Source of the DNA: Amoebophrya sp. A120
Taxonomy: Eukaryota; Protista; Dinoflagellata
Assembly: GCA_905178155.1 (NCBI GenBank)
Contig: CAJINV010000005.1
Location: 4,873,369 to 4,937,368, forward strand
DNA: 64,000 bases
Direction of reading: 5' to 3'
Part shown: piece by piece, positions 2,631 through 64,000 of the stretch
Position numbering within the stretch: the stretch's first letter is position 1
How the letters are laid out: each line of letters starts with the position of its first letter
Program-made: the position numbers and the translations under genes
The notes under the pieces: generated by a model
Told to the model about the DNA's origin: nothing
What the model saw: the letters and a program-made list of their open reading frames with translations, nothing else
Databases searched by the model: none

Positions 2631-5600
2631 TCACAGCGATAAGGGAACTTGTGGTGGTTGGGCGCCGAGTAACTCTGCGGCCAAGTCATCAAAATTAGGC
2701 ACTTCTTCTATCAATGGGTCTTGTTTTCGGCTGGGGGCAGGAGGCTCCAATGGACCATCTGCGGGAGGTGGGGGACCCGACTGCGGTGGCGAGCCTGCTC
2801 CAGCGCCGCCTGCTGTTACTGAGGCTGCCGAAGCCTGCGGCGGCAGTACCGGCGAATCTTGTTGGGCCAGTAGGAGACCCGGAGCCGTGGCTACTGCACC
2901 CGCCGCACCAGCTGCTCCGCCTGCTCCTGCAGGACCGCCAGCGCCGTCCAAGCTCGCAACCATCGCCGGTTGCGGCCTTCTTGCAACGGAAGCCTGCGGC
3001 GGCAGGTCGACCAACGAGCCTGCGGCGGCAGGTCGACCTCCCTGCTGCGGTTGAAGCTGAGAAGCCGAATCGGTGCCAGGTGGTAGAACGCTTCCCGCTC
3101 CAGGTCCTGCACTCGCGAGAGAAGTCGCCGGGGTCGCGGGTTCTGCCTGACCGGGAACACCTCCACCTGCCGCGGATGCCATACTCGCCAAAGATGGTCC
3201 AAGGTCGTCGTCGCTATCTGGCATGAAGGGTCCAACGCCACCTCCAACATCGCCAATTCGTCCACCTTCACCAAAGTCACTACCACTTCCCGGCTGCCTG
3301 TGCTGCGGTAACAAGGAAGTCGGAAAAAGCTCGATTACAGGAGCTGAGACTGCTTCGACCTGTGGCGCGAGCGGTCGCTGACCGGAACCTATCCTGAGTA
3401 AAAACATCCCCATGCCAGAGTCAAGATGGGAAATCTGCTAGACAAATTAGCCAGCTTTGGTTGTTTCGCATGACAAGTTTGTCCTCGTAGTGTAATCCTG
3501 TTGAGGTAGTTCAGAAGCATCACAGATCCAGCATATCATGCTGACTACATCACAAATTTCAAAACACGACTAGAAATAAGTGCTTCTCATGGGGCTCCGC
3601 ATGAGAAACTTTTTTGGCATGCAGATTTGCATGAGAACTCTGGGGTGGGCACGTTTTTACACAGGATAGAACCTCCTCCACCTCCCCTGGGTCCCGCACC
3701 CGGGCCCGCCGGCATCACCGGCGTCCTTTCTCCCACTCCCCCTCCCGCGTAACTGGCGGGAGGGCGAGAAAGTGACGACGCGGCGCTTCCCGCAGCGGCC
3801 TGTGCAGACCCTGCATCCGCAGCCGATGCAACAGGTGCCGTATCAGGCCCCGCCGGCACCACCGGCGTCCTTTCTCCCACTCCCCCTCCCGCGTAACTGG
3901 CGGCAGGGCGAGAAAGTGACGACGCGGTGCCTCTTGCAGCGGTACTTGCAGATCCTGCACCCGCAGCCATCGCATCGCCGGCCCCAGAATGTGCTGGAGG
4001 TTGAGCCGATGCAGAAGGGTCCGGCGGTCCCAGAAAAAGATCTCCTCCATCGTCAAACCCTCCCAAACCCGCCTGGCCCCCACCACCAGACACAGTTCCC
4101 GCATCGCTGCTCAAGGTAGAGCGCCCTGCTGATCCCGGAACACTCGCCGAACCGGATTTAGAAACACCAGAAGCGTGGTCAGAATCAGAATCGCTCTCCT
4201 CCGGAATGGTGTCGAGGCGTGTTGTCCGCAAGCGGTCCTCGTCAGTGGGTCGCCCCATGCTTCCCGCGTCTCCACCAACAAGTCCGACTTGCGGAACAGG
4301 ACGTCCGACAAAGGTGGCAGCGCTTGGCGCTGCAACGGTTGGAAGCAGAGGGGAGTCCGCAAAAGGTCCAAGCGGAATGTCGTGGGCCCAAATGGCGGGT
4401 TGACCCCGTGGACCCAGCAAGCCCGGTGCCTGTAGATCAGACTGCTGCGCCAGCCCCGGTCGTTGCCGTGGTGCTTCGTCCGCGGGCCCCCCTCCCATGT
4501 CCGAGGAACTGGGACCTGCAATAATAGAACCAGAAGGTGGTGACGCGGAAGCGCGTCCTGTCGCGGTACCTGCCGCCTCTGCACCTGCAGTCCTCGCATC
4601 CCCGGCCGCGGGGTGTAGCTCCGTCGGTGCAAAAGGTGCCGCAGCAGGTTCCGGCGGTACATCAAGGCCACCTCCAACGCCAAATCCCCCACCCCCGCCA
4701 CTAAATAAAGTGCGGGGCGGACGTACTGTCTGGAAAGGGTCGCGGGCCCCTTGCATTTCTCCCGCGCCTCCGCCTCCAATTCCGACTTGCGGAACAGCAC
4801 CTCCAAGAGAAGTTGCATCGGTCGGCGCTGCTAGACTTAGTGGACGAAGGGGGTCCGCAAAAGGTTCAAACTGCGACCGCGCGTTATGCGGATCGCCGTC
4901 ACTTGCTGCCACGGCAGGTCGTTGTGAATCCAGGACGCCCGCTTGTTGGGGGTTCAACGCATCGGTCGGTGCGAGACCCGGTTCGAATTTCATGCCAGGG
5001 TACTGGTGTAAGTTGTTCGGAATAGATGCAGCAAACGGGTCCGCAGCGGGAAGAGCCGAAGGTCCTCCGTCTACTTGTTCTCGCGAAAGCGGATGCTGCC
5101 TCGAGTCTGCTGGCCCAACATCGCTCGCCGAACCGAGATGATCAGAAAGAACACCAGAAAGAACAGAAGGGGTCCGGCTCCCTCCCCCCAACGCACCGGG
5201 ATGCACTGGCTCGAATGGCGACGCACCGGGAGGCTGCAGCAGTCCTCCCCCACCTCCGCCAGTTCCCATCCCGCCTTGCAAAGAACCTCCCCCAAAAGAG
5301 GACGCGCCGGCGCTCAGCTGTGTTGAAACGGGTGTTGGAGGAACGGAGCTCCCAAGAGATTCGCCGTCACTTGCTGCCATGGCGGCTTGGCCTCGTGGAT
5401 CCAGCAAGCCCGCTGGCGGTAGACCCGATGGCCCCGGCTGCGCCAGCCCCGGTTGCAATGCCGCTTCACGGTAGTCGTGCAAGCTGTCCAGAGTAAACGG
5501 CCCCGCAACGGGAAGCATTGCAGTTCCTCCGCTTTGTTCTCCCGAAGGCTGCTGCGGCTGTCCGAGTGGCGAGTACAGGCTCTGTGCTGGGTCCGCAAGA

Positions 5601-7260
5601 GAACCGGGAAAACGACGCTCTCCGCCGTCATAGAAGGGCTCTTCTTGGGGGAGAACAAAGGGGGCAGTGGCAGCACCACCGAAAGCCGGTTCGCCGATGG
5701 CAGGATACGTCGGAGCCGCCGCACTTGAAGAGTACGACGCAGCTGCGGCCGGGTAAAATGGCGTAGCAGCAGCAGCGGGCGGATATGATCCCGCCGAAGA
5801 AATAAACGCCGGTGCGCTGCCCCCGCCTGCCGCAGAATAAGGCTCCGCGGCGGTCGCACGGTACCCTCCTCCTCCTCCCCCCGGAGGATAACTCCCCGTC
5901 CCCACGGCGCCAACAGCGGGTCCTCCTCCCGCGAACGCATTAACACCGGAGTCTCCGCTCAACCTGCCACCTCCAACAAAGGGTAGTTGCGCCGGAACTG
6001 CGGCCATTGGAGCTCCAGCGTGGGCAGCTGCCGGTTGTCGTGCGCCCGCTTGGGCAGCAGCTCCCACTTGTCGTGCTGCGCCCGCTTGTCCGCCGACTTG
6101 CGCTCCCGCCCCGGCAAGTTGTTGGCGTTCGTCCGAAGGAGTTGTCGCCTCGTTGTAGTAGTGGGAAGGCTATCCATTGCAAATATGTCTGGGTCTGGAT
6201 GTGTCATGCTAGGCTCGCAACACTCGTAAGTCTGTCATGCGCGTTACCTTTGAGCCCTGTTTTTCTGTGATGCAGAAACGCAGTTTGCCATGCAGAAGAG
6301 GCAACACTTAGAAGCTCCGAAACTTGTCATGCTGAGCCACTACTTGCGGACTCCACATGCTACGTCACTACAGCAATACAAGTTTCCAGAAGCAGACCTA
6401 TTTGCATTTCGTAAGCGCGGCGGCAGTTGGTGCCCGTAGTGTTCAAAGTGTGCCGCGACTGCCGCCCGGTGCGCGTCATCTACGTGCCGCAGATGCTCCG
6501 GTAGATTGTGGCCGGACATCACGGCGCGAATCGCCGCCTCTTGCGCTTCCCGTTCCGGGCTGCCCGGGGGATAGTCGTGGTTTCCCCCGGCGGCCTCCAC
6601 GAGCCAAGCTTTAGGCTGGTACTTGCTGCCCGGTAGAGGGTAATGGTCCAGCCGGGTCCTCGCGCCGCTCGGAAGCTGGTGCTTTTCCCGCATTTTTGTC
6701 CTCTTGGCCACGAAAGAGGAGGCGGACGCACGTCCAGGACGAGACCCTGCAGCCTCATCGGTAGCACCGAGGACAGCTTCTCGCTCCTGCCGCTTGTGGT
6801 TGTGCAATCCTGCAGCAGGAGCAAGCTCTCGTCCGCCTTCCCGCCGCTGGTTCCGGAGGTATTCGACCGTATTTTTGCGACTCAGCTGTAAGTACACCTC
6901 GGGCGGATGCAACACGTCGTCGGCGGATTCATCGTCTTCAAAAATGTCGAGGGTTGGACGATGGTTGTGGTGTTGGTGAATATTAAAACCGTAGTTTTTC
7001 TCATCGACATCGTCCTCCTCATCATGTTGATCGGCGTTCAGATTCTTGTTCGTGATTTTGATGTTCTTGTTGTGTTCTAAATCTGTATTCGCCTGCTCCT
7101 GCTTCCTGACCCCGGCTGCGAATTTCACAAAATTGTTCCCGGAAAAGAACACGACAAACAGCTTGGAAAAGGAGCCCACCGCGGCGCAAGACGGAAGAAA
7201 CCCCACACGACGTGTCGCCCGGGGGGAAGACCGGCCGCAGGTGGGGAACAGGGCAGCCAT
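2631..7260 (-). CDS. Large low-complexity Gly/Ala/Pro/Ser-rich protein (~1360 aa), unknown function, 3 exons
   Basis: ORFs 6340-7260, 3587-6067 and 2631-3413 join in frame (QLPP|PSHYY; GGG|SGQRP) after removing the introners at 6171 and 3390 plus 5 nt. Internal 144-bp duplication at 3716/3860. Confidence 0.75.
3390..3668. mobile_element. Introner family B
   Basis: TATCCTGAGTAAAAAC...GTTTTTACACAGGATA; TSD GAACC. Confidence 0.95.
6171..6413. mobile_element. Introner family A (diverged)
   Basis: TATCCATTGCAAATATGTCTGGGTCTGG TIR; degenerate TSD AAGGC/AGCGC. Confidence 0.85.
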
Positions 7261-8249: not shown

Positions 8250-10371
8250 TCACTTTTCCCAGTTTAATTTCTTTTTCACCTCCTCTTGAAAGTCCGTCGG
8301 TAGAAAACTAAAGCAGAAACTCAAATGGCTTCGGCTCGCTTCCGTTTCTCGCATGGTGGATTCGAATTCCTTGGAAATTTCAAACACCTGTAGCAGCGGT
8401 TCCACTTCCACTTCTACTTCCCCCTCTTTGCTCTCCTCCTGCCCGTTGCCAGCTGAGGTCGCTGTGGTTTCTTTTTCTGCCATTTCGTCCGCCATTGTCA
8501 TCAGAATCTGCAGAATGTCTTCCAGCAAATCCGGTTCGAGCTTGTGAAAAATCTTGCGGCTTTCCGACACCTTTATTGTCGTGGCCAGTAGCCGTACTTT
8601 CGCCTCCGTTCCCTTCGCTCGGTGCCACGCGGTTACAAATTCGCTCAGGCGCGTCAGTATGGATTGCAAAAATGTCTGGGTCTCGAAGGTTGGAACTTGT
8701 GATCCTAACTTTGGACTCTAAAAAATTCTGTATTGCATAAACAGCAAGAGGAGTCCGGTTTGTGCTACGCGTGGAGGGGATTTGTCATGCGGAATAGGCA
8801 GCAGGAAGGCCTCTAAACATCTGTGATGCTAGGGCTTCCATGGCAGACATTCTGTGTCATGCAAAAACAGCATAAACAAATTTCGGATTCTTCCAGACCC
8901 AGACATTTTTGCATTTCATAGTCAGCTTTTTCGCCTTGCTGCTTGTTCCGGCTTGCTTGTTGCCATCGGCGCCGGAGGGTATGGAAGTGGAAAATGGTCG
9001 AGAGTCTACCAACTGTACTAGTTGCTGCTTCTCTTTTTGCAATCGGAACAAGTGACTTTTGCAGAAACACAGAAAGAATTATTGCAGCAATGAAGCAGAA
9101 GATCGAGCAAGAGAAACTGTGCAACTAACTACACTGAGCAAGAAGGTATCAAATGTAAAAATGTCTGGGTCTGGAAGATTGTCATGCTAGTCTGGCATGA
9201 CTCTGCACTCTGTATTGCGCGGCCACCAACAGGTCCCCTTGCCTGTCATGCAAAAGCGCAGTTTCTCATGCGAAATACGCATCACAGAAGCACGAAAAAA
9301 CTTGTCATGCTTGGCGGCGCATTACAGAGCACTTATTGTTCACGGACTTGCATCACAAGTTTCCAGACCCAGACATTTTTGCAGTTCATAGAAGGAACAA
9401 AACCACCGATTTCCACAGTCCCATACATGCGGAGCTGCTGGAGGAAGTCTGCTTCAGTGCGGGGTCTGCGATTTCATTTTATCCATTCGATTTTCCTATC
9501 TACTACTTCTTCCTGCATGACAAACAACAGCACGAATGCAGAACTATGCATGCCAATAGACTACAGTTCGAAACAAGAACTACGAACTCCTAATATACCG
9601 CCCCCCTGCCTCCCGTACTTGTTGTGGTCGAGACACTTCGGCGGGGCCTGAAAGTCCCTCTTGTTGATCGGCTTCAGCGTGCAGCCCGCGACCAGCTGCT
9701 CGAATTGGTGGTAGGTGGGCGCTATGAACTGCAAAAGTATCCGATACTTGTATAAATGCATTACAAATTTCCTCCGCGTGAGAAATAAAATTTGTAATGC
9801 GGATTCACCTTAAGAACAAGATTTGTAATGCATGATTACAATACGAGTATCAGATGCTATTGCACAGGATAGGCGCCTGGTAAACGGCGCGCTTTTTCGC
9901 TTCGTCGACGGTGTCCCGCTTCCAATCTTCGTAAACGCCGGCGGTGACCTCGTTTTTGAACTGGTCAAAATTACTGGGATCGAATATCGTAAGAAAAAAT
10001 CCCCCCTCCCCATATCGAAAAGGCCCGCCTCAGAGCATTTGTGATGCTTATTTGTGGCCACAAATCGCATCTGTCTTGCTCTTGCAAGAAAGCAACCGCA
10101 TAGGCTGCGCCCCATTATGCAGGCGATTTGTAATGCTGTTGGGCCTACAGCGTAGACGTTCCTCATGCTAAGTGCCTAGGTCGTAACCTCTCTAGATCGG
10201 CATGATATGGGCCTGCACTCCTCTAGTGCAAGACAAATCTGATTTGTGTACTTACGCAAATCCAGCATCAGAAATTTCGTTTTGATGTGGGGAGGGGGGA
10301 TTTTTCATTTTGATATCGAAAACCCCCTGGTCCGGCCGGAACGTCAACTTTTCCTGCTTCAGGATCGGCAT
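8250..10371 (-). CDS. CCDC103: Dynein attachment factor CCDC103/DNAAF19 homolog
   Basis: Spliced N-terminus DWKRDTVDEAKKRAVYQAPTYHQFEQLVAGCTLKPINKRD matches the CCDC103 dynein-attachment motif. C-terminus SEFVTAWHR...IFHKLEPDLLEDIL...LSFCFSFL is RPAP3_C-like. Middle exons (about 9010-9598) are uncertain. Confidence 0.85.
8658..8920. mobile_element. Introner family A
   Basis: TIR ...TGTCTGGGTCT / AGACCCAGACA...; TSD GTCAG. Confidence 0.95.
9147..9390. mobile_element. Introner family A
   Basis: TIRs; TSD GAAGG. Confidence 0.95.
9723..9871. mobile_element. Introner family C
   Basis: TATGAACTGCAAAAGTATC...TGCACAGGATA; TSD GGCGC. Confidence 0.93.
9985..10315. mobile_element. Introner family D
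   Basis: AAAAATCCCCCTCCCCATATC / GATGTGGGGAGGGGGGATTTTT TIR; TSD TCGAA. Confidence 0.95.
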
Positions 10372-11309: not shown

Positions 11310-14300
11310 TCACATCTCCCCATCTGACAGCAGCACCTCGCCCTCTATCATATGCAAATATGTCTAGGTCTGGAACTTGTCATGCAGATTTTACATGGCC
11401 CGCGACGTCTGTGATGTATTCCGTAGCATCATAGATTTTTAGAGGGCTTTCTGATGCCTACTCTGCATGACAAATGCCCTCCCCGCGTAGCACAAACTAG
11501 ACTCCTCTTGCTGGTCATGCAATACAGATTTTTTTAGAGTCCAAAGTTACCATCACAAGTTCCAACCTTCCAGACCCAGACATTTTTGCATTTGATACCC
11601 TCGCTCAAAGCGCAACTCTCCAAAACCCGCCGCTCTTCCTGTTTGAGTTTCTGCATGACAGATTTGTCTTCATCCTCCTCGGCCACAGTGGAAAGTAGTA
11701 CTTCCCCGAGGCTTTGGTTGTTCTGCCGGTTCGTCTTCAAGCCCCCTTCGTCGTCGTCCTCTGGTCGTGCGGTTACTGGCGGTTTCTGCGAAGGAGGATG
11801 AAAGCCAACTTTCGAAGCAGCCTCGCTTTCGACAGGACGAGCAGTGTCGTTTTTATTCTCGTTGTTCTGGTCAACATCTGCTGCATGGGAAGTCGAAGCG
11901 GAAACTGACATTTCGTCCTCCGCGTCAAAGGCCGCTCGGGCGGGGAAGAACGAGTTACTATTTAATATTCCGTATCTTGCTTTGTAGTGGTCAAAGACGA
12001 AACTTTGCGGATTCTGCTTTGCCTGCAGCTCCTTGTCACCGTACCTAGAGTTTTTTGTATAGGTGAAGTGAAGAATTTGCATTGCAGAAACACATTTTAA
12101 GTAGGTCATAATTGATGTTCCGTCTCGATTACAAAAAAAAAACCTTCAAGAATACATCAGAAAAGTACAGTAGCAACTCTGCAAATCGTCTCGTTTTCGC
12201 CTCGCTGTCCCGCTTGTCCCGCTGTTTCAGTTCCTGCTTGCTTTCCAAAAACTCGGTTTGTTTCTTCAGTTCTGAAGTTAGTGTTTCTTTTAACTCCTTT
12301 CTCAAATTCAGCACCACCGCGGTCAGTTCCTCCTTCATGGTGACCTTCAAATCCGTGGTTTTGTTCGAAAAATCCCGCTCCAATTTTTCGATCACAGAGT
12401 CAATTTTCAACTCGTAATTCTTCTGCTGCTCCAGCGTCTCATGGTACTGGGTCATGAGGACGTCTCGGTAAGGAGGAGGAGGGGGGTCTTCACTTTTGTC
12501 CTGTTGCGTCGCGAGTAGATGATCGCGTGTGGTGGAGGAAAAAAACGGAGGTGGCGGTAGAGTGACCTCTGCCTGCTGCTGCTTTTCTGAAACAGTGCGA
12601 GTTTCTGTACTAGTCCCGCCTGAGGCGACAGCTGCTGCTGGCGCATCAGAAATCTCTCCACCGCCCAGCTGCACAGGAGCCGGCGCAGCTCCCTCCACCT
12701 CCATGCTGGCAGAACCTGACTCTTGCGCCACAGAAACATTACCGGGCTTGTTGCTACTCTTGATGATGCTAGAGGGAAGATCACCAATGCTGTCGGTCCG
12801 GAACGTTTCTTCTGTCAGCACCTGTTGCAAAACTTCCCGGAACAAATCTCTTTGCTCCGCTGCTGAAAGAGACCGGGTCTGCCCTATTACAGTGAAAAAT
12901 GCCCCCTCCCCATATCAAAACGTAAATCTGCGATGCAGATTTGTGGCCACAAATCAGCTTTGTGATGCTAGAGGGCAAAAGATGCGGACTGTAGCGCTGT
13001 CTAGCGTGGGAAAGCCTTGCAGCTCCAGGATGACAGGAGGCAGCTGGAAGTGGGAAACCGCATGACAGATCATCTGCAATTTAGGCCGCAGCTTCGTCTC
13101 TTGGCCTTCTAGCAATACAAGTCGATTTGTGTACTCAAATGCAGCATCACAAATTCGCGCATCTTCCGTTTCCGATATGGGGTGGGGGCTTTTTTCACTT
13201 TGATATGCCCGTCCTTTTCTTCCGGGGATTGTTGTGCAGTCTGCGCCTTGATACCCTGCTCCTGCTTCGCAACAGCATCGATTTCGTTCCAGATCTCCGC
13301 GGGCTGCGGCGCTTTTGTCATGATCCCTTTCCTTTTCGAATTCATCGGAGTTGTAGATTTATTCTCGTGGTTCAGACACTCTAACAGCTTCAACTCCGTC
13401 ACGTAAACGCCGTGCGAGGTGTTCGAAATCACCGGCGGCGCGGAACCCGCTGCGGAGGTTGTCGTGGGGCGAGAATCTGTAGATCATGATTTATTTTTGA
13501 GCGATGTTTCTGCTTGTCGCAAATCATATTTCTTCAGAAGGTGCAACTGGTTGTATACGAACACAAAAAAACATCATAGCAGATTATTCAAAAGTGCATT
13601 TCAATACCTTGATAGTAGCCACCTGTAGCACCATTCCTGTCCACGAACTTCTGCACGAACGGTAGCACCGGCGCATGCTGCTGTGGCTGCTGCTGCTGTG
13701 GCAGAGCAAAGTTCGGTGAAGCAACCGCCCCGGCTTCTGCTGCAGAATCCATCCCGTAGAAATACCCGCCGTAAAAATCTGTCTGCACAGAATCCTGGGC
13801 ACTATCCCGGCCCCGCGGGGGGGCCACGTCCGGCGATCGCCGCGCATCATTATTCAAGTTTCGCGCCACGCCCGGCCCTCGTCCCGCATATTGTCGCGAC
13901 GGGCTAGCAGAACTACTACTCGTACCCACTGCGCGAGCTGCTCCTGCATCGCCTGCAAGCTGTGCTTGCTGCTGCCCCCGGAATAATGGTCCTCCTCTTC
14001 CGCCCGGACTGAAACTCCGGCTTTTCGTTTCCGAATACTGCGTCGCCGCGCGGAGCATCTCCCTGGTCTCCCCCACATCGGCGTCGGCGATGTTGTACTT
14101 TTTCTTCAATTTGGACGCAAAATTGTTGTATTCCTGTTCTTTATGCATTGCAAAAGTATCGTACTAGTATAGATTGCATCACAAATTTTTTCAAAAAGAA
14201 AAATAGAATTTGTAATGCTGATTCACCTAAAAATGGATATTTGTCATGCATGATAGCAATTACTACGAGTACGATACTTTTGCACAGGATATTCTTTGAA

Positions 14301-17300
14301 CTGCAGCAAAAGCTCTTCCGGGGTGGAATACTCGGTGGCGACACTGCTTTGCTGCATCTTTTCCTGCTGCGGTAAGAACCCAGAAGGACTGGCGGGTGTA
14401 AAAGAAGTTCCGCTCACCCTGCTGCTCCTTGCGCTGCCTTTCGCCGCGGCATGCTGTTGACCCCCTATGTGTGCAGCCGAGGTCGGCGGTGACCAAGCGG
14501 TTATCGACGCGACGCTCTTGCTATCCGATTTCGCAGACTGTGGCGGGCTGGAGAAGTAGTAGTAATTGTTGCGTGTTTTGTTCTGCTCTTCATTCAATTT
14601 CTCTGGCGGACTACTGGACGCTGCGCTGGCGAACCCGGCGATGTTATCAAAAGGAAAAACTCCCCCTCCCCATATTAAAACGGAAATCTGTGATGCAGAT
14701 TTGTTGTCACAAATCAGCTTTGTCATGCTACACGGGAAAAGATGCGGACTGTAGTGCTGGGTGGCGTGGGGAAGCCTTGCATCTTCAGCATGATAGGAGG
14801 CAGCTGAAAGTGGGAAACAGCATGACAAATTGCCTGCAAACGAGGCCACGACTGCGGCTCTTGGCCTTCTAGCATGACAAATCGATTTGTGACCTCAAAT
14901 ACAGCATCACAAATTTCGTTTTCGATATGGGGAGGGGGGATTTTTCCTTTCGATAGATGTCGTAATTCTCCTGGTCGTCGAGAAAGTTTTGGTTTTTGTT
15001 CAGAGGTATGAACTGCAAATATGTCTGGCTCTGGGAGATTCCGAGCCTTGTCATGCAGATTTTCCATGATCCATGTCGTCTGGAATTCAGCACCTAGCAC
15101 GACAGATTCTCTGAGATCCCTACCATGCCTATCCTGCATGAGAAACTCCCTGTCAACTTGATCGAAAGTGGACGTCTTTTGGCACTCATGCAACACAGAA
15201 TCTTGCATGCTTCAGACTTAGCATGACAAGTTGCAACCTTCCAGATCCAGACCCAGACATATTTGCAATCCATAAGAGACTGAAGCACCGTGGTCAAAGG
15301 TGACCGGGGCCGCTTGTTCGTGTTGTTATAGCCTTTGTTCAGCATTTCATGTCGTGGACTGCTGTTAAAACTGCTGTTAATTGCCGCGGTGCTCGCAGTA
15401 TGCATTGCAAATGTGTCTGGGTCTGGAAGATTGCTATAGCAGACTTGTGACGGCGCAGGTCTTGCATGACCCATACCGTCTGGCAAACAGGACCTAGCAT
15501 GACAGATTCTGTTTTTACATCTCTATCATACCTCTCCTGCATGACAAACTGCCTCTCAACTTGGGCAAAAATACACACCGTTTGGCAATCATGCAACACA
15601 GATTCTTGCACCATTCTAGACTTACCATGACAAGTTGCAGTGTTCAGGACCTTCTAGACATATTTGCACTTGATACGCATAGGCAGCTTGCTTCACTTTC
15701 CCAGAAGAAAACACTTCTTCCAGCTCCTGCATTCGTCTTCTCGCTTGTTCGATTTTCTTCACTTGCTCCTCTTTGGACAAAAGCTTGCTCGCGAAATCAT
15801 TTTTAGCGGTCTTCTTGTTGCTTTTCCCAAATTTCAAATTGTTGTTACTCCTGCCCTTCTTGTTCGCATTCAGCACTTCCTGCAGCGCCTCCTGGGCTAT
15901 TAAGAGGAAACATCCCCCCTCCCCATATCGAAAAGGTATGCTTGCGAAAATTTGTGTTGCTGATTTGAGACCACTAATCACGTCTGTCTTGCAAGAAGGC
16001 AACTCCACAAGCTCCGCAGCATTGTGCAGGCGGTTTGTGATGCTCATGGGCCTACATCACGGACTTTTCTCATGCTAGACCCCTAGGCCAAAACCTCTCT
16101 ACTTAGGCTTAGTATGGGCCTGCATTCCTCTCCAGCAACACAAATCTGACTTGTGTACGCAAATCCTGCATCAGAAACTTCGTTTGGATATGGGGAGAGG
16201 GGATTTTTCCTTCTGATATGCGCTTTCTTCGCTTCGAGCCTCAGTTTTTCCAATTCCATTTCCCGTTTTTCGTTTTCAATCTTCTCCCGTTCCTCCACCA
16301 ACTGCGCAAGCATGGTTTCCTCTTTCGCCTCTTCACAGATCAGCTCGCCCTATCAACTGCAAATATGTCTGGGTCATCTGGAAGATTTCTCATGCAAGTC
16401 TGGTATGACTCTGAGCTCTGTATTGCGTAGCCGCAAAGACGAGCTCCTCCTTTATGTCTTGCAAAAACGTAGTTTCTCATGCGGAGTACGCAACTCAGAA
16501 CCACGGAAAAACTTGTCATGCTGTGCAACGCATTACAGTGTGCTCACTATTTTCCCCGTGCTTGCATCACAAGTTTCCAGACATCCACGGGAGATATTTG
16601 CATTTGATACGCCCTCGGTCGTGTTCAGCAGCAAGTCGTCATTGTCGTATTCGTCGGGCTCTTTTCTGTCAAAGCTGAAGGGTTATCCTGAGTAAAAACG
16701 TACCCACACCAGAGTCAGGATGGGGAATCTGCTAGACAAATCAGCCAGCTTTGGTTGTTTGGCATGACAAGTTTGTCCGCGTAGTGTAGTGCTGTTTGAG
16801 CTAGTTTAGCAGCATTACAGATCTAGTATCTCGTGCTGATTGGAGCATGACAAATTTCAAAACCACACTAGAAAATGCTTCTCATGGGGCTCCGCATGAG
16901 AAACATTTTAAGCATGCAGAGTTGCATGACAACTATGGTGTGGGTACGTATTTACTCAGGATAAGGGCTTCGGCTTAGTCACCGGGGCGGGTTGGATGTT
17001 TGGGTTGTCGGTGTTGGGCGGGACAAGATTTGGATGCAGCTTGTCCCGTATTCTCGTCGCCATGTTGTTTCGGCGGGCAGTGGAGCTGTTGTTATTCGAG
17101 CTGGATTGTAGTTTGCCAGCAGTCTGTCTTGCGGGTGCTGCTGGGGCAATTTTTCCACCACCAATATTCGCCATGTCCTCCCTCCGGATGATTTCCGTTC
17201 GCGTTTCCTGCTTCAGATGCGCGGGCTTGGTTGTGGACATCACGACATTGGTACTGTTTGATGTAGTTCCGACACCACCAACATTACCGCCGCCGCGTGG

Positions 17301-20707: not shown

Positions 20708-21258
20708 TTTTGGTATTGTGCTTATGGCGGGTACAGGGCGGGACTGAGAACTTCTTCTACCGATGCGATGGGTTAATAATAGCGCGAATTCGACTATACA
20801 TATGGAAGTTTCCAACTTCTTCCGTACGTGCGTGCTCCTTGCAAACAAGCAGCGCAGAAACGCGGTAGGTGAATAAGAGACACTACACAAACTGAAGCGC
20901 TTTCTGTTGCAAACTTCAGTCTTCACTCACGTCGAACAAATTTTGTCGGCTTCTTTGAGAGAAAGAGAGCAAGTCCTTCCGGTCACACAAGAAAACGGCA
21001 GCTTTGCTCATCTCACATCAAAACTTCTTTTGATGCTAGAACACAAACGACGAGTAGGACCACCACGGGAAAACTGTTTTGTACGAAGATTTCAGGGTGG
21101 TCGTGAATACAGGCACATAGTAATCATATTGACCACTGTGCCGACGAAATGAAAGCTGAGCGGGTGCAGAAACGCCAATAATGTAAAAAGAAGCTTTGCT
21201 TGTTTTGAATATAGACGTTGCAAAAGTTGTATCTTCGAGAACTTCCGTTCATTATTCG

Positions 21259-26033: not shown

Positions 26034-26319
26034 GGGATAGAGAGTTTTGGTGGATCGAGTTTAGTCATAAGCTAAAGAAACACTACTAGCGCAGCGGTAG
26101 CGAATATAGACGGGGTGTGGGAAATTAGTTCATGAGGCTGCTGATCATTTTTCAGATTTTGTTGTGTTCACTTCGTCACTTCCAGTGCTGGCGTTGGGTT
26201 CTTGACATAGAAGCTCTCAACCTATCTACTACAAACTCTGTGGCAGAACAATCTCGACAGTGGGCCAGGAGTATGACACACAGCGGCGAATGCTTTTACG
26301 TCATCTGTGGAAGCCCGAC

Positions 26320-52200: not shown

Positions 52201-52556
52201 AGCAAACCGATGCGCCGGCCTGGTTCCGGATCGAGGAAAAGGAGACAGTCGAGCCGGATATAACCCGCTCAGTGTGTTACAATCCCAAACGTTACAATGG
52301 AATCTGGAATTTGTGTTGCAAGCAGTGCATTCTCTAACCAACTCGCATATGATTGCGCATGACAAGTTCTGGAGTCCCAATCCGCCCTACAGTCTGGAGA
52401 AATTTGTATTGCAAAAAGTGGAAGGCTGGCCGAGTTTGTCATGCTCATCATGCAATACAAAACCCAGACTCTATTGTAACGTTTGAGATTGTAACGCTTG
52501 AGCAGGTCATACCGGAGTTCGATTGTTTCGGGTATCCGAAGGTGCCGGATTTTTGA
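49286..52556 (+). CDS. Predicted secreted protein with a Lys/Glu-rich middle and small Cys-rich modules
   Basis: MRLPRNKIAWVLTALLGG signal-like start; 6 introners; CLSKKCEKGFECVNGFC and CSKIFEKADC...CKW modules; ends EPEFDCFGYPKVPDF*. Confidence 0.75.
49473..49727. mobile_element. Introner family A
   Basis: TIRs; TSD GTGGG. Confidence 0.95.
49762..49971. mobile_element. Introner family H
   Basis: TATGCAAGAAAAAAACTGTG / CGCAGTTTTTTTCTTGGATA; TSD CGCCG. Confidence 0.93.
50036..50297. mobile_element. Introner family A
   Basis: TIRs; TSD CCGTA. Confidence 0.95.
50440..50710. mobile_element. Introner family F with an internal double palindrome
   Basis: TIRs; TSD ACCCT/ACTCT. Confidence 0.93.
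51461..51713. mobile_element. Introner family A (open in frame within ORF 50727-52337)
   Basis: TIRs; TSD CCGAA. Confidence 0.95.
52259..52511. mobile_element. Introner family G
   Basis: TATAACCCGCTCAG...CTTGAGCAGGTCATA; TSD CCGGA. Confidence 0.95.
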
Positions 52557-52576
52557 TTTTGTAGATTCTAGTAAGC

Positions 52577-52830
52577 TATGCATTGCAAATGTGTCTGGGT
52601 CTGGAAAGGTTGAACCTGTGTTGCGTGTATCGCATTCCTAGAAAATCTGTATTGCATAAGCAGCAAAAGTAGCACCGCACTTTCGTCATGCGAAATCGCA
52701 GTTTGTAATGCGTGCTGCGCATGAGAAAGCGTTTGAAATATTTGTCATGCTGCACTGCGCTTCAAGGCGCGCCCAATCATGGCCATTCAGCATTGCGAGT
52801 TTCCAGACCCAGACATATTTGCATTTGATA
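52577..52830. mobile_element. Introner family A just 3' of the stop codon
   Basis: TIRs; TSD TAAGC/GAAGC. Confidence 0.93.
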
Positions 52831-53786: not shown

Positions 53787-55706
53787 ATGGCCTCCACCGA
53801 CGTCGCCGCCGCCGAAAAAGCCAGCAAGGCTTACCCGCTCGCCTCCCACACTCTGCAGACCAGCATTTTGGATTTGGTCCAGCAGGCAGCCAACTACAAG
53901 CAGCTGAAGAAAGGTATAGTTATCGCACAGACCACATATCGAAGAAAATATGTTTTTGTCCTGCACAACATCGCAAGAGTGCTGTTGTCTCTGATGGTGC
54001 TGTCAAAACATGAGGCATTATCATCCTCACGCTAGGAAAAAATCTATCACAGGTGCGAACGAGGCCACGAAGACGCTGAACCGTGGTACCTGCGAGATTA
54101 TCATCCTCGCTGCGGATACCGAGCCGCTGGAAATCCTGTTGCACCTGCCGTTGGTGTGCGAGGACAAGAACGTGCCTTACGTTTTCGTCAAGTCTCGGGC
54201 TGCTCTGGGTATTATAGGGGTTTTTTTTATCATGCGGAATTTGCATTCTGCGTGAAAATTTTTTTCGCAAAAATGATTGTTTCAACTACGACCCCTCAGA
54301 CGAATTGGACCTAACCTCACGGCCAAGTACCGCCGCAACGACTACCAAATGTAAAAATGTCTGGGTCTGGAAACTTGTGATGCTGGGTGGCATATCATGA
54401 GGAAGCCACAACTGCTGGCTCAGCATGAGAAGTTTCTGAGCTTCTAGGTGTTGCCTATTCTGCATGACAAACTCATAAAGAAAGAACTTCGTAAAGAAAG
54501 AACTTCGTAAAGAAAGAAAGAAGCAAGCACTTCGTATTTTGAAAGCGTCGCGCTTCGTAAAAGCACTTCGTTTGTTGGAGTCGCTACGTGATGAAGCAGA
54601 TAGCTCATGTAGAAATAAGCAGCAGATACTTCAACGCGTGCGCAGCTTGCGGGGGGGTGACTCCTGTGGTCCCCCCCCACTCGTTGCGCCTTTTTCCAAA
54701 ACTGCAGGGACTTGCTTCCTTTTTTTTCCAGCAGTGGCTGGCGGGGTAAGATCAAGGCCGGGGCTAGTGACATTGTTGCAAAGTCATAGGGCGCAGAGTC
54801 TGATAGCAGTAGCACACAGCACCAAAATACTTAGCCCATAGCGTTTTCCGAAGTTCCTCAGTGGCTGCACCTCGCCTCTCTGTCTTAGTCAAAAACATAA
54901 GCACAAAATGGACTGGCGTAGCCGCGCACATGCATGCACGCGGAGGGGAAGATGGAATAGAAGGGTGGCGGCAACGCGGGAGCCAGGACGCAGCCCGGAT
55001 TTTATCAAAAAGGTACGGCCTAAGGCCTCGGGAACGCCGAGCACACCCGCGCACTTCTTCGTGAATCGCCCACCGCTTTTTGTGCGTCAGCTGTGTCGGA
55101 ATAAAAAAAAAAAAGAAAAAAAGAAAAGGAAGAGGACGCAACAAAAAAAAAAAAGAAAAAATAAAAAGAAAAGAAAAAAGAAATCAGCGAAAACCGACCG
55201 GCGTGCGAATTGCCTAGCAAAAAAAAAAAAAAAAGTATGCATAACAAGTTGCATTTGTATTGCATGTAACCAAATTCAATTTCAACCATAAAACAGGTCG
55301 TGCTTGCGGTGTTAACCGGGCGGTGATTGCCTGCTCTATCACGAGCAAGGAGGGGTCTCAGCTGATATCCTATTTAAAAACGTCCCCACCCCATAGTTCT
55401 AGTTGTAATGCAAATCTGCAGGCTGAAAATGTTTCTCATGCGGAGCCCCATGAGAAGCATTTTACAGTCGTGCGTTGGAATTTGTCGTGCTCCAATCAGC
55501 ATGATATACTAGATCTGAGATGCTACTGAGCTAGGTCAAACAGCACTACGCTACAAATCCAAATTTGTCATGCAAAACAGCCAAAACTTGCGGATTTGTC
55601 TAGCCGATTCCCGATCTTGACTACGGTGTGGGGACGTTTTTCCTTTTGATAGCTGAACTCGCAGATTCAGGACTTGAAGGACCAGGTGGAACAGATCCTG
55701 ATCTAA
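53787..55706 (+). CDS. SNU13: SNU13/NHP2L1 (15.5K) U4/U6.U5 tri-snRNP and box C/D snoRNP protein
   Basis: KAYPLA...[16 protein letters not shown]|[12 protein letters not shown]...[34 protein letters not shown]|[23 protein letters not shown]|[16 protein letters not shown]. Introns: 53914-54052 (GT-AG), 54209-55296 (GT-AG), and introner 55366-55651. Confidence 0.97.
54343..54472. mobile_element. Half family A introner inside canonical SNU13 intron 2
   Basis: One TIR; colinear with the left half of the 49473 copy. Confidence 0.85.
55366..55651. mobile_element. Introner family B in the SNU13 CDS
   Basis: TIRs; TSD GCTGA. Confidence 0.96.
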
Positions 55707-58588: not shown

Positions 58589-61500
58589 ATGGAGAAGAAA
58601 TCCCAACGCGGCGGCGGGGGCCTTTTCTACTTCGGGGGCCCACGGGCATTGCTGGGTCAACGACCTCCCCATAGTCGCGGACCACGACAGGAGAAAGCAA
58701 CTCCTTTCCCATTCAGCAGAATGGCGGGATCAACATCTTCGTTGTCCCTCCTCATCACGGTTGTATTCCTTTTCGCCGCAACAAGCTTCTCCACCACTGT
58801 AACAGCATCTTCCACCCCCTTGAAAACCCGCAGCACCGACAGTCTTGCCGTCGGCTATGACCTGCTCAAACGTTACAATCTCGAGCGTTCCAATAGCATC
58901 TGGATTTTGTCTTGCATGAAGAGCATGTGGAACGTATGCAGAGTTGCGCCTCTCGCAATACAAAACTCGCCGGATATTAGTGGGGTTTTGGGTGCCGAAA
59001 CTTGTCATGCGAAAACCTATGGGACTACGGTAGATCATGCACTTCCTGTATCACAGATTTCCATATTCTATTGTAACGCTTGAGATTGTAACACCTGAGC
59101 AAGTTATATCGGCGCGTCGGTTTTTCTAGAAACCGTCATTGAGTTCTCGCTGGAGGACCAGAAAGCGGTTGAATTGATGTATGGTGCGTCTTCCAACACG
59201 AAGAACTACCAGCAATCGTTATCAGCCTACAAGGAAAAAACCGGCAAGAGAAACCTCGCGAAGTATTTGAGGAAAGCGGTGTTCAACTATCTCGACAATC
59301 ACCCCAGGTTAGATATCACCAACACCGCGGGGAGTGAATTACTCAAGGAGGAGAACATCGCGGTCCGAATTCGGGACACGAAAGACTCGTTCACGAAGGC
59401 GAGATATGCATTGCAAATATGTCCTCTGGGTGTGGGAAGGTGGAACTTGTAGTGCGTGTCTGGCATTCCAGGAAAATCTGTGTTGCATGAGCAGCGAATG
59501 GACAGACTCCGGATTGCAAAAACGCAATTTGTAATGCGTGTTTAGGTAGTATCAGAAAGCGCCTCCAAAGCTTGTCATGCTTGGCTGCCATTGCAAGCGT
59601 TGCAATCGTGCGCAAATCAGCATCACAGTTTCCAGACCCAGACCTATTTGCAATTGATACGAGAACCGCGATAGAGGAAACCGATCCGGTTTTCAGCAAC
59701 AGCGACCTCGCGGACAACTATCTCAATTAAAAACGATCCCATCCCAGAGTTGTCATGCAGATTTGCAGTGACATGAAGATTTGTAATGCAAATCTCCATG
59801 AAAGGAATTTCCAGGCGTGTTTTCGAATTTGTAATGCTTTGAACTGGATAAGCAGATGGTTTTGTGATGCGGCTGTAGTTGCTAAACAGCACTACAGTAC
59901 AGGGAGGATCTTGTCATGCGTGAAAACTTCTTGATTTGTGTTGCGAGATCCCCATCTTGACTCTGGGGTCGTGGGGACGTTTTTACCCAGGATAACAACA
60001 CAAACATCGTGAACAGCTTAAAGCAGAGCAAATTTGAGGCGGTCATAACCGTGCAACTCACCCCGCGAAAAGCGGCGTATGAAAAACAGTCCGGAAGCGA
60101 CAACTACTCCGCAACCGCTCTCGCCCTGACCGGCGCGTACCGAATAGAACAGACCGGAAACGCAGGGTCAGCTACCACCTTCGCGGGCGACGCGGGGGTT
60201 GGGGTCGCGGCCTCGGTGATATCGCAACTGTTCGATGCGGATTTTGCCGTATGCATTGCAAAAATGTCTGGGCTTGGATGAAAGTTGTAATGCTACGTGG
60301 CGATTGTTGAGCGTACTCCTGACTGCAGACAAGCATGACAAACAATTCCGAGGACGCTTCCTGATGCGTAGCGCTAGCGCGCATGGCAACCTGCGCTTTT
60401 GCATGAGAAGGCAGAGTTCGTTTTATTTGTTGGTCATGATGCAATACAGATTTTGCAGGAATCCAAGACGCGCAATACAGGTTCCACTTTTATTCCAGAC
60501 CCAGACATGTTTGCAATGCATATGCCGCGGCAACCGGTGATTTCCAGCCGGGGATCCACCACTACTTGGGGCCGGTGCTCGTCGCGGAATCCGCGGTTTA
60601 TGCATTGCAAATACGTCTGGGACTGGAAGTATGCAAACTTGTGATGCGCACTTCACAAGACACAAAAATCTCTCATGCATAGGCAGCAAAAGTTGCTAGC
60701 TATCTGTCACCAAAATGGGGCATTTGTCATGCGGATTCGGCATTGCGGAAGCTTCTCGAAACCTGTGATGCTACAGCTTCTATGCCAGACCTTCTGTGTC
60801 ATGCAAAAGCAGCATGACTCTTGCAGACCCAGACAACACATTTGCATTTGATACAGTTGCATCGGGGACAACGTCGCAAACCCTCTTCGCGTCCACTTCC
60901 TTCAAGGTGGTGAAAAATAAAGTCCGCCCCTTGCCCCAAATCCGCGCCGCCTTCAACTTGAACAGCGGGACTTCCACTGCAATAGCGGGCGTTGGAAGTG
61001 GGGTCAGCAGAGCGCTGCAGCAAGAAGTGGTGGGAAAATACACGAATTTGGTGTTAGACCCAACGGTCCACATTTCTGCTTACGCGGTGGACAAGGATTC
61101 TCAGAAGGTGGACGAGGAGGGTCAGAAGACGCCCTGTGCCTACGAGCCGGGGTCGGCGGTGCCGGGGAAGTGGGAATTGTACATGTACAAGCACGGGCAG
61201 GCACCCGAGAACAACGGGTGGCGCGACATGCGGTACGGGCAAAACCCGAACGGTTTGAATTCCCTCTGCCCCCACCCTACATCCGGTAATGCGAAGATGG
61301 CGGAGGCGACGTTTGACCAGAAGTGCTACGAGGAGGTCCTGGCGGTGGGCGGGACCGGGGCCTGGGTGCGGCTCAAGCGGAAGGACGATGGGTGCATACC
61401 TGCTTCTCACGCTTTCGGCCCGGGGGAGCACTCTATCAACGGCCAGTACTCCATCGTGGCGACCTCGAGTGGGTTTTCGGGCGACGCGAAAATCGGCCCG

Positions 61501-64000
61501 GTAAACCACGGTCCGCTCTTTTCTGACGCGCTGGGGGGTGGCCAGTGGATGTGGCGCTGCAATACAAATCCGCCGGACAATTGCCAGACCTACGATACCG
61601 GGGGCGTTTTGGGTAATTCTTTCTCGGATCCCAACACGTGGGGCAATCTGATCACCATGCCCGGCATGTACGACGCGGGGAAAGGGGAGGCCAACTGCTG
61701 CAACAAAGGGTACAGCTGGGCCTGGTACGGAAAAACTGTCCGTGGTACCGGCCCGGTGATGAAGCTTATCAAATGTAAAAATGTCTGGGTCTGGAAGAAT
61801 GCAAGTTTGTCATGCTTGTCTGGGATGACTCTTAAATCTGTCATGCACATTACCAAAGAGCCCCACTTTTCTGTCATGCAGAAACGCAGTTTGTCATGCA
61901 GAATAGACAAGAACACCTAGAAGCTCAGAAACTTGTCATGCTGAGCCAGCAAATGTGGCCTCCTCATGATACGCCACACCGCATCACAAGTTTGCAGACC
62001 CAGACATTTTTACATTTGATGAAGCTGTCCGTGGTATCAAACGCGGATAAGGAGCTGGACTTCTTGACGAATTATTTGTTACTGCAGAAACAAGGCAGGG
62101 AGTACTTTCGGGACTTCATTTTAGATAAGAACAAGAACAGCTACAGTCTGTCCACCTGGTTCGACAGCACGGGATTAACAGCCGCGTCGTTGCCACTCGC
62201 GCCAGCGGGGAAGCGAAGGAGGTACGTGGAAACGGAGATCACTCTGACGGTTACCGACAAGCCGTCCGCCGCCTCGGCCTACACAGAGGTGTTGACCGCA
62301 AGCGGCCAAAAGGGGTTGTGCGCCCAGAGCACAATAACGAACGGGAATCCGACCCACCTTCCGGACGTGCGGGGCTGGATCGACAACGACCCGTCCCCCC
62401 ACGCGCGTTTGACGTGTCAGGCGTTGTGCGACAAGATACCGCAGTGCGTCGGAACCGGGTCGTCCATCTTCAACCAAAATCCCGACGGAAAGGACGCTAA
62501 TGATCGAACCTTTTGCGAGCTGGATCTTGGCAGTTTCGTCGGGTTGGATATCAGCGTGTTGCCTTCCCAGTTTTACATGAACTGGAGCGGCTACCCCCAG
62601 GACAGCACGGACACTTGGGAGCTCGGCACGGTGCACACCGGGTACCCAAACGGAGAGTGCTGGAGGAAGGAGGCGGGCGTTCAGAGCTCCTTCACTTTCG
62701 ACAGTACTGTTGCTGGTGGTAGTATGAAAAGGTCGATCGTGCCCGGGTTGCAGGCGACATTCGCAACGGCGTTTGGCGCGAAGATCCCCGTCTTACCCGA
62801 GGACGTGATTGTCATCCCCCAAGAGGCGGAGAAAAACTACCTGACCGCGGGAGCGCACAAGGTCACCGTGGTGTTGCCCATCGACCTGGACGCGGACGAT
62901 GCAACCCTGCAGAAAAAGATCAAGGAAGAGTACGCGGGGTCGGAGGAGAAGTACATTGAGCAGGAGATTTTGGGGCTTTTCAAAGTCGACGACGACGACG
63001 CATTACCCACCGCGCCTGGCTACACCGAAGTGTTCAGCAGCGACGGCAAAAAGGGGTTGTGCGCCCAGAGCACAATAACGAACGGGAATCCGACCCACCT
63101 TCCGGACGTGCGGGGCTGGATCGACAACGACCCGTCCCCCCACGCGCGCGACACGTGCCAGGCGTTGTGCAACAAGATACCGCAGTGCGTCGGAACCGGG
63201 TCGTACATCTTCAACCAAAATCCCGATGGGAAGGATAACAATGATCGCACGTTTTGCGAGCTGGACCTTGGCAGTTTCGTCGGGTTGGATATCAGCGTGT
63301 TGCCTTCCCAGTTTTACATGAACTGGAGCGGCTACCCTCAGGACAGCACGGACACTTGGGAGCTCGGCACGGTGCACACCGGGTACACAACTGGAGAGTG
63401 CTGGAGGAAGGTGATGGGATACCAATATACAGCGTCGTTTACGGCGCTCGGTATCTCTGGCATGAAGCTCTCCAAGAGGCTCACACTGGTGGAGGGAAGG
63501 TACGGAGACAGTGCAAGTGGGTCATCTATTTCCTCAGTCGACTACGACGCCGAAGCAAAATTGGGATCCATCGTGTCATATGAAATGCAAAAGCATCGTA
63601 CTAGTATAAATCGCATGACAAATTTCTTCAGCATGAGACATAAAATTTGTCATGCGGATTTCGCTTGAGAAAGAAATTTGTAATGCATCGATTACTACGA
63701 GTGCGATACTTTTGCACAGGATGCGTCCAAATCCGATTTCACCACAGCTAGCTACGTCGTGCCGGCGTTTCCCCTATCAAATGTAAAAATGTCTGGGTCT
63801 GGAAGAATGCGCGATTTGTCATGCAGCTTTTTCATGACCCTTGAGGTCTGTAATGCAGGACCTAACATGACAGATTCTGTGCACTCTCTCTCATGCCTAT
63901 CCTGCATGAGAAACTCCCTCCCGACTTGGCCAAAACTGGACGACTTTTGGTAATCATGCAACACAGATTTTTGTATGCTTCAGATTTAGCATCACAAGTT
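58589..64000 (+). CDS. Large predicted secreted/surface protein with a duplicated Cys-containing (PAN/apple-like) module; incomplete at the window end
   Basis: Hydrophobic LSLLITVVFLFAATSFS after the ATG at 58721 (in-frame upstream ATG at 58589); 8 introners; TCQALCDKIPQCVG-type module occurs twice. Confidence 0.75.
58856..59108. mobile_element. Introner family G (opposite orientation to the 52259 copy)
   Basis: TIRs; 253 bp; TSD TCGGC. Confidence 0.95.
59405..59659. mobile_element. Introner family A
   Basis: TIRs; TSD CGAGA. Confidence 0.93.
59719..59994. mobile_element. Introner family B
   Basis: TIRs; TSD ACAAC. Confidence 0.93.
60250..60522. mobile_element. Introner family A
   Basis: TIRs; TSD TGCCG. 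Confidence 0.93.
60599..60853. mobile_element. Introner family A
   Basis: TIRs; TSD CGGTT/CAGTT. Confidence 0.92.
61767..62021. mobile_element. Introner family A
   Basis: TIRs (right end GATG); TSD AAGCT. Confidence 0.93.
62308..63411 (+). repeat. Near-identical ~360-bp intragenic duplication (offset 741 bp)
   Basis: 62308-62670 versus 63049-63411. Confidence 0.95.
63579..63723. mobile_element. Introner family C
   Basis: TIRs; TSD TGTCA/CGTCC. Confidence 0.9.
63775..64000. mobile_element. Introner family A, cut by the window end
   Basis: Left TIR TATCAAATGTAAAAATGTCTGGGTCTGG. Confidence 0.9.

What the first reader, a model, noticed from the sequence alone, without database searches (positions are those of the whole stretch)
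3390..64000. About 65 MITE-like introns in ~9 families obey one rule: TAT...ATA termini, 5-bp TSD, removal of element plus 5 nt without GT-AG
Seen: families with unrelated inner TIRs and family-typical lengths (A ~243-284, B ~271-286, C ~129-164, D ~311-331, E 308, F 191-216, G 253, H ~210, J 162 bp) almost all start TAT and end ATA. They sit between 5-bp direct repeats. At the coding junctions traced, deleting the element plus one repeat restores conserved proteins (SNU13, CCDC103, PKD2-like, MFSD1-like). Established: Amoebophrya genomes have abundant non-canonical introner elements with inverted and direct repeats, and their removal mechanism is unresolved. Inference: a single non-canonical excision pathway (RNA-level, or DNA-level like ciliate IES removal) and one transposase lineage serve all families.
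Basis: partly seen in the sequence, partly recalled or inferred. Interest (0 to 1): 0.88.

Follow-up and report, generated by a model that had tools for sequence, protein, structure and literature searches.

The report
Transposon introns cut at fixed offset
These are the already published transposon-derived introns of the marine parasite Amoebophrya A120; transcripts lose each one plus exactly five bases without the usual GT-AG signals, and the cut likely falls at a fixed place, one base before the element's start and four bases after its end, a rule that gives a handle on their still unknown splicing machinery.

Summary
The window has 65 complete TAT…ATA MITE-like elements in 9 families, flanked by 5-bp repeats. 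It is Amoebophrya sp. A120 (three annotated proteins match at 100%). These introners, their TAT ends and a 5-bp repeat were published in 2021, so the elements are known.

RNA-like contigs skip 13 of 13 elements in 14960-25500 as exactly length + 5, alongside GT-AG introns; a DNA-like run lacks the one skip compared. Removal is therefore at RNA level, not like a ciliate IES.

New here is the cut position, which the paper left unknown. At 17 junctions where the two repeat copies differ, one register fits all 17: intron = N-TAT…ATA-NNNN. The neighbouring register fits 16. It follows the gene's strand and holds where the repeats have decayed. It places TAT at donor positions +2 to +4, as in the host's GTA(T) donors, so a relaxed spliceosome guided by the hairpin is likeliest (0.55); a separate Euglena-like machine is the rival (0.3).

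No transposase was found. TA…TA ends suggest IS3EU/GingerRoot kin, but those make 6-bp repeats. The scan noted one related case in another genome, none in this one.

The parts
3390..6413 (-). Elements 3390-3668 (B) and 6171-6413 (A) in a 1379-aa frame (2631-7299)
8658..10315 (-). CCDC103-like gene with elements 8658-8920 (A), 9147-9390 (A), 9723-9871 (C), 9985-10315 (D); 9723 lies inside the PF15867 match
11310..20709 (-). Gene for A120 protein P0006 (1773 aa): 14 elements starting at 11346, 12885, 14142, 14645, 15007, 15399, 15898, 16351, 16684, 17782, 18059, 19073, 19338, 20046, and 4 GT-AG introns (12045-12168, 13477-13607, 18808-18959, 20398-20529)
   Evidence: 10 of the elements skipped in RNA-like contigs
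15898..16218 (-). Family D element with unequal repeats; RNA keeps at least 3 letters of the upstream copy
18059..18187 (-). Family C element with unequal repeats; RNA keeps at least 3 letters of the upstream copy
23082..25411 (-). Elements 23082-23361 (B), 23759-25044 (D ends, 1286 bp) and 25104-25411 (E, the one GT-AG case at the inferred register) in a membrane-protein gene
   Evidence: all three skipped as length + 5
23759..25044 (-). Longest element: family D ends, a B-like fragment and about 760 bp with no match elsewhere in the window; no long ORF, no Pfam hit; still removed as 1291 nt
28107..36615 (-). Gene for A120 protein P0005 (2220 aa, kelch repeats): elements 29078-29330, 30137-30395, 30816-31076, 31115-31366 (A), 33702-33851 (C), 34089-34367 (B) and two old introns
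28208..28364 (-). Old intron, G-TAT...ATA + 4 nt, no direct repeat left; register limited to 3 or 4
35658..35865 (-). Old intron, G-TAT...ATA + 4 nt, no direct repeat left; register limited to 3 or 4
40275..48679 (+). Gene for A120 protein P0001 (1097 aa, polycystin domain): 21 elements starting at 40385, 40702, 40978, 41292, 42055, 42376, 42713, 43046, 43272, 43579, 43922, 44280, 44577, 45320, 45685, 46075, 46507, 46892, 47447, 47664, 48151; no GT-AG intron
41292..41455 (+). Decayed family C element, repeats 2 of 5 alike, GT donor at the inferred register; register 2 to 4
42376..42637 (+). Family A element; the only junction that excludes register 3 (needs 4 or 5)
49473..52830 (+). Elements 49473-49727, 50036-50297, 51461-51713, 52577-52830 (A), 49762-49971 (H), 50440-50710 (F), 52259-52511 (G) in or at the end of a 654-aa frame
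53787..55706 (+). SNU13 gene: two GT-AG introns (53914-54052, 54209-55296), element 55366-55651 (B), and a truncated A element (54343-~54473) inside the second GT-AG intron
58856..64000 (+). Elements 58856-59108 (G), 59405-59659, 60250-60522, 60599-60853, 61767-62021 (A), 59719-59994 (B), 63579-63723 (C) and 63775-end (A, cut by the window) in a 1208-aa frame
   Evidence: 58856 skipped as 258 nt
1162..1377 (.). Truncated family G element, left end missing

Best explanation
These are Amoebophrya A120 MITE-derived introns that transcripts lose together with exactly five flanking bases, likely by a cut one base before the 5' TAT and four bases after the 3' ATA, and likely through a relaxed host spliceosome guided by the terminal hairpin. 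Steps: (1) inferred: a cut-and-paste transposase, not found here, inserts a symmetric TAT...ATA element and duplicates 5 bp. (2) Predicted: the pre-mRNA ends pair into a stem. (3) Shown: element + 5 nt is absent from RNA-like contigs and from annotated proteins, in either element orientation and without GT-AG. (4) Strongly indicated: register N|TAT...ATA-NNNN|, set by the stem ends and by the direction of transcription, not by the repeat. (5) Inferred: TAT serves as donor positions +2 to +4 (host donors read GTA, often GTAT), +1 is free, and the acceptor is chosen by distance from the stem instead of AG.
For: RNA-like runs X3, X4 and X6 skip 13 of 13 elements in 14960-25500 as length + 5 (X5 shows 8 of the 13), and the same contigs skip GT-AG introns of 152 and 132 nt. 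X3 skips 291 nt at 55366 where DNA-like run X1 has depth 0. Register 4 reproduces P0001 at 1097 of 1097 residues over 21 elements; registers 0, 1, 2, 3, 5 give 4, 4, 2, 1, 3 wrong residues. Over 17 informative junctions (7 RNA, 10 protein) register 4 fits 17, register 3 fits 16, the others 3-11; a common register would arise in 0.002 of random draws; the best strand-blind register fits 15. Two old introns without repeats keep G-TAT...ATA + 4. In three annotated genes 43 of 47 introns fit the pattern and 4 are GT-AG. Terminal bases deviate at 5 of 390 positions against 31 of 325 repeat mismatches (p 4e-7; p 0.01 if only half the mismatches are counted). Seven canonical donors all start GTA, four GTAT. 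Farhat 2021: 83 of 89 spliceosome proteins found, U1 snRNA and snRNP27 undetected; all 9 top A120 and all 9 top A25 non-canonical site pairs have T at +2 (Table S4). Loss of SNRNP27K goes with +4 U donors (abstract of PMC10581693). A canonical-intron Amoebophrya strain has U1 (passage).
Against: Register 4 over 3 rests on one protein-level junction (42376), and the annotated proteins and RNA-like runs may share source material (4 runs, 2 samples, 1 study; 'RNA' is the tool's guess). No enrichment of G at +1 (19 of 63 in the window, 56 of 184 in other loci) or of AG at the 3' end (4 of 63, 19 of 184). The stem would bury +2 to +4 (predicted pairing 0.65-0.72). No invariant branch adenosine: two well-oriented copies end in GTA. 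Canonical 3' ends here are A-rich while element 3' ends carry a T tract. A codon-likelihood test of the register in a second assembly was inconclusive, and one poorly oriented copy (L007 9473-10727) would read a stop at register 3-5. Table S4 patterns may reflect aligner preference. Euglena's analogous introns are thought non-spliceosomal.
Confidence: 0.55

Rival explanations
1. Same fixed register, but a separate non-spliceosomal machine (structure-reading nuclease plus ligase, as proposed for Euglena nonconventional introns) cuts 1 nt before and 4 nt after the stem.
For: No G at +1, no AG, no branch motif; both orientations occur in families A-H and both orientations of family E are skipped in RNA; Euglena uses a stem-offset code N3-CDG...CH'G-N5-6 and its authors favour distinct factors (PMC12501133 abstract and discussion).
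Against: The register puts U and A at +2 and +3 as in host donors, and A25 with a different TIR (TTA) also has T at +2; U1 is undetected in the two strains rich in such introns but found in a canonical strain; three of the four most decayed copies have G at +1.
Confidence: 0.3
2. The cut floats within the direct repeat (repeat-guided slippage or variable splice sites), as the 2021 paper drew it.
For: Most junctions are ambiguous; 40 of 62 repeats are perfect; published annotations scatter.
Against: One register fits 17 of 17 informative junctions, p 0.002; copies without repeats are still removed at the same offsets.
Confidence: 0.08
3. Elements are excised from DNA in some life stage, like ciliate IESs.
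For: TA-containing ends and removal of one repeat copy; DNA from only one sample was laid, on 20 kb.
Against: DNA-like run X1 has no joint at 55359-55651 where X3 has depth 761, and its contigs cross element ends; the skipping contigs also lack GT-AG introns; the register follows the gene's strand (17 of 17 against 15 of 17); a second assembly holds 402 paired elements.
Confidence: 0.03
4. The skips are reverse-transcriptase jumps across hairpins at short repeats.
For: Hairpin plus direct repeat is the known setting for such artefacts (recalled, no call).
Against: Reading frames and conserved proteins need the removal; copies with decayed repeats are removed too; one contig per run carries up to 12 successive skips.
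Confidence: 0.02

Closest known systems
Amoebophrya A120 introner elements (Farhat et al. 2021, PMC7789003)
   Same: Same organism; inverted repeats starting TAT, 7 variable bases, then AAA; 3-5 nt direct repeats with a 5-bp example; non-canonical borders validated by RNA-seq; no transposase found in A120.
   Different: The paper calls the splice sites variable and the border unknown (Fig. 3 legend) and gives repeats of 3-5 nt; here the repeat is uniformly 5 bp and the cut fits one register.
A120 introner family 38 (Gozashti et al. 2025, PMC12130899)
   Same: [quoted passage not shown]
   Different: About 808 bp and 5 copies; for other A120 families the automated TSD calls range from 2 to 11 and no common rule is drawn in the 56 of 58 rows read.
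Euglena nonconventional introns (PMC12501133; review PMC11282704)
   Same: MITE-like origin, paired ends, splice sites at fixed distances from the stem, no GT-AG.
   Different: CAG...CTG stem with 3-nt and 5-6-nt spacers and a purine at the next exon start, against TAT...ATA with 1-nt and 4-nt spacers and no purine bias (35 of 63); circles are reported for Euglena and untested here.
Fritillaria borealis non-canonical introns (as reviewed in PMC11282704)
   Same: Transposon-derived, TIR and TSD, removed by an altered U2 spliceosome.
   Different: Preferred AG-AC and AG-AT borders; here neither terminal dinucleotide is fixed except T at +2.
IS3EU/GingerRoot DNA transposons (PMC10045372, PMC6839031)
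   Same: TA...TA termini, integrase-like DDE transposase would fit family 38's remnants.
   Different: TSD usually 6 bp, here 5; no autonomous copy seen.

Membership tests
Amoebophrya A120 introner elements | Genome is A120 | tested here: met
   three window exons match proteins named Amoebophrya sp. A120 at 100%
Amoebophrya A120 introner elements | Inverted repeat starting TAT, 7 variable bases, then A stretch | tested here: met
   definition
Amoebophrya A120 introner elements | 3-5 nt direct repeat at the borders | tested here: met
   5 bp
Amoebophrya A120 introner elements | Removed from RNA without GT-AG | tested here: met
MITE | Short, TIR-bounded, TSD-flanked, non-coding, repeated | tested here: met
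MITE | Cognate autonomous transposase | tested here: inconclusive
   none in the window or in 72 long ORFs of 599 kb of related loci; no whole genome held
IS3EU/GingerRoot | TA...TA termini | tested here: met
IS3EU/GingerRoot | 6-bp TSD | tested here: not met
   0 of 62 and 0 of 402 perfect at 6 bp; 40 and 287 at 5 bp
IS3EU/GingerRoot | IS3/integrase-like DDE transposase | not testable with these tools
   no candidate ORF in hand
Canonical U2 introns | GT/GC...AG borders | tested here: not met
   1 of 63 at the inferred register, 3 of 63 at any slide
Canonical U2 introns | U at +2 and host donor consensus | tested here: met
   T at +2 in 63 of 63 at the inferred register; host donors GTA in 7 of 7
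Canonical U2 introns | Branch point and lariat | not testable with these tools
   only contigs covered the locus; no invariant A seen
Euglena nonconventional introns | N3-CDG...CH'G-N5-6 code with exon purine | tested here: not met
   TAT...ATA, spacers 1 and 4; purine at next exon start 35 of 63
Euglena nonconventional introns | Excision as full-length circles | not testable with these tools
   needs raw reads of the strain
Ciliate IES | Precise excision from DNA | tested here: not met
   DNA-like run lacks the joint at the one element compared; spliced contigs lack GT-AG introns too

The most novel reading that the evidence does not exclude
Amoebophrya A120 runs a second, non-spliceosomal splicing system that measures 1 and 4 bases from a TAT...ATA hairpin, matching the 5-bp duplication of one TA...TA transposase lineage so that any exon insertion in either orientation is silent: an independent reinvention of the Euglena code in alveolates.
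Probability: 0.3. Interest if true: 0.85.

Novelty: already known. Interest (0 to 1): 0.52.

Why it matters
More than 60% of A120 introns are non-canonical and their removal is unexplained (PMC7789003). A fixed border tells where to look for lariats, circles or cut ends in existing RNA data, lets gene finders model these genes, and explains why insertions in coding exons are silent: 1 + 4 bases equal the 5-bp duplication. Either outcome matters: a spliceosome that needs neither G at +1 nor AG, or a second splicing machine parallel to Euglena's. The elements themselves are not new.

Tried and rejected
No whole genome is held, so no genome-wide transposase search was possible. The run search listed no holder on record as RNA. 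X3 covered few unique exons in 40000-53000: no conclusion drawn. Family A end pattern: 0 hits in viral contigs. No transposase Pfam hit in 61 window stretches or 72 ORFs of 300 aa or more from the related loci; of the 10 elements over 400 bp there, most carry unrelated inserts and some are probably mis-paired. No region of those loci matches the window's unique DNA, so no empty-site comparison. Codon-likelihood polarity test in 184 oriented elements of 372: no trend. A 5'/3' asymmetry of terminal deviations seen in the window (3 TAC at 5', 2 ATG at 3') was not confirmed in the related loci, so a fixed branch A at -7 is not claimed. G at +1 is not enriched overall. Only one of 27 or so unequal-repeat junctions in the related loci lay in a Pfam domain; not pursued. 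De novo scan for further old introns at frame breaks gave too many candidates. The representative-protein search for the 6171 junction returned nothing. A U1-like reading of 38369-38530 was dropped: no Rfam U1 match at E 10. Roy et al. 2023 (Curr Biol) is not held and figures of PMC7789003 (logos, S19-S25) could not be seen; either may bear on the claim that the register is unpublished.
Full report
Observation. A scan for inverted ends with 5-bp flanking repeats, blind to the terminal letters, returned 58 pairs, 34 of them TAT...ATA. Extending from those ends and by BLAST gave 65 complete elements, 3 partial ones and 9 families whose members are 65-87% alike. Flank identity is 0.91 at offset 5 and at most 0.35 at other offsets from 1 to 10 (62 elements). 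A second assembly reached by one pattern scan (148 loci, 599 kb) holds 402 paired elements, 287 with perfect 5-bp repeats. All 65 complete elements lie inside gene spans that I drew from the frames.

Identity. Three exons match proteins named Amoebophrya sp. A120 at 100%. Farhat et al. 2021 (PMC7789003; abstract, sections 10, 11, 12, 16, passages and supplement legends and Table S4 read; figures not visible) report that A120 inverted repeats start with TAT, seven variable bases and an A stretch, with 3-5 nt direct repeats and a 5-bp example. They found no A120 transposase and no U1 snRNA, and drew the splice sites as variable with an unknown border. Gozashti et al. 2025 (PMC12130899; passages and 56 of 58 A120 rows of one supplement) label family 38 'Ginger, 5-bp TSD, TA/TA termini'.

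Removal is at RNA level. Deleting element + 5 nt opens frames of 1036 aa over 17 elements, 1051 over 9, 1954 over 6 and 1208 over 7. On 14960-25500, contigs of runs X3, X4 and X6 skip all 13 elements by exactly length + 5, including the 1286-bp one, and X5 shows 8 of them; the same contigs skip two GT-AG introns, which marks them as spliced RNA of the minus strand. The four runs are two samples of one study. On 40000-59999, X3 skips 291 nt at the SNU13 element while DNA-like run X1 has depth 0 for that joint; only 15 of about 2000 joints were shown, so this is one direct comparison. Only 3 of 63 oriented elements (two of uncertain orientation left out) can be read as GT/GC/GA-AG at any slide.

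The register. Let u be the number of letters of the upstream repeat copy kept in the mRNA. Where the two copies differ, the product shows u. Seven RNA junctions give u of at least 1 (four), 2 (one) and 3 (two). A uniform u = 4 rebuilds P0001 at 1097 of 1097 residues over 21 elements, every other value fails at 1-4 residues. P0005 adds u at most 4 and at least 1, and reveals two old introns without repeats that read G-TAT...ATA plus four bases, u = 3 or 4. Over 17 junctions u = 4 fits 17 and u = 3 fits 16; a shared register would arise in 0.2% of random draws; a register fixed on the chromosome strand fits at best 15. An orthologue's proline supports u of at least 3 at 50440 (read by eye, not counted). 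In the three annotated genes 43 of 47 introns fit N-TAT...ATA-NNNN, two with TAC, and four are GT-AG. The terminal bases are better kept than the repeats (5 of 390 against 31 of 325), which suggests selection after insertion. Weak points: 4 over 3 rests on one annotated residue; annotation and RNA contigs may not be independent; a codon test in the second assembly was inconclusive, and of three copies where a stop codon discriminates, two fit u = 4 and one badly oriented copy does not.

Mechanism. At u = 4 the TAT occupies donor positions +2 to +4. The seven canonical donors in the window all begin GTA and four GTAT. In Table S4 of the 2021 paper all 18 top non-canonical pairs of A120 and A25 have T at +2, although A25's repeat starts TTA; aligner bias may contribute. 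snRNP27 is undetected in both strains and its loss goes with +4 U donors in yeasts (PMC10581693, abstract only). A strain with canonical introns has U1 (bioRxiv 2024.09.05.611473, passages). These points favour a changed spliceosome, as in Fritillaria (review PMC11282704, section 6). Against it: +1 and the 3' dinucleotide show no bias, both orientations occur (family A leans 47 to 26), the predicted stem buries the donor bases, and no branch A is invariant. Euglena's nonconventional introns follow a comparable stem-offset code and are thought to use other factors (PMC12501133, abstract and discussion). I put the spliceosome at 0.55 and a separate machine at 0.3; the register itself (3 or 4) at about 0.9 and exactly 4 at about 0.8.

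Transposase. None was found. TA...TA ends are typical of IS3EU/GingerRoot, whose duplications are usually 6 bp (PMC10045372 and PMC6839031, passages), so membership fails on that feature; an integrase-like relative remains the best guess given family 38. One lineage for all families is plausible from the shared outer frame but unshown.

Verdict. Real, RNA-level, and already described as a class. The fixed 1 + 4 register was not found in the papers returned by four searches; Roy et al. 2023 and the figures of the 2021 paper could not be read. It is a useful new rule about a known system and makes the open question of its machinery testable with existing reads. The scan's earlier notes held nothing for this genome and one related case elsewhere.

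Noticed in passing
window 38369-38530 (+): Starts with a U1-like 5' heptamer and folds into a multibranch structure (z -2.05), in a strain where U1 is reported missing; Rfam gave no U1 match at E 10, so probably chance.
   Followed up: partly
window 38455-39442: T tracts spaced about 9-10 bp within blocks repeating every 155-157 bp, in the gap between the minus-strand and plus-strand gene clusters; looks like a nucleosome-phasing or bent-DNA region.
   Followed up: no
window 26200-27900: GC-rich intergenic block with many short inverted repeats and no element copies.
   Followed up: no
window 52516-52903: About 60 bp around the stop codon of the 49061 gene is duplicated on both sides of element 52577-52830.
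   Followed up: no
window 54343-54473 and 1162-1377: The two truncated copies lie inside a GT-AG intron and outside the long frames, where intact ends would not be needed; all 65 complete copies lie in gene spans.
   Followed up: partly
window 28208-28364, 35658-35865, 41292-41455: Three of the four most decayed copies have G at intron +1, giving GT donors without AG acceptors; too few to call a drift towards canonical donors.
   Followed up: partly
window canonical introns (7): Their 3' ends are A-rich, with no pyrimidine tract.
   Followed up: no
L024 632-1465, L047 3862-4492, L069 6001-6972, L025 6314-6770: Elements with perfect 5-bp repeats that carry 160-690 bp of unrelated sequence inside.
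   Followed up: no
runs X9 and X10: RNA reads under the same species label match only short element-internal stretches with unlike flanks, suggesting another strain with related repeats.
   Followed up: no
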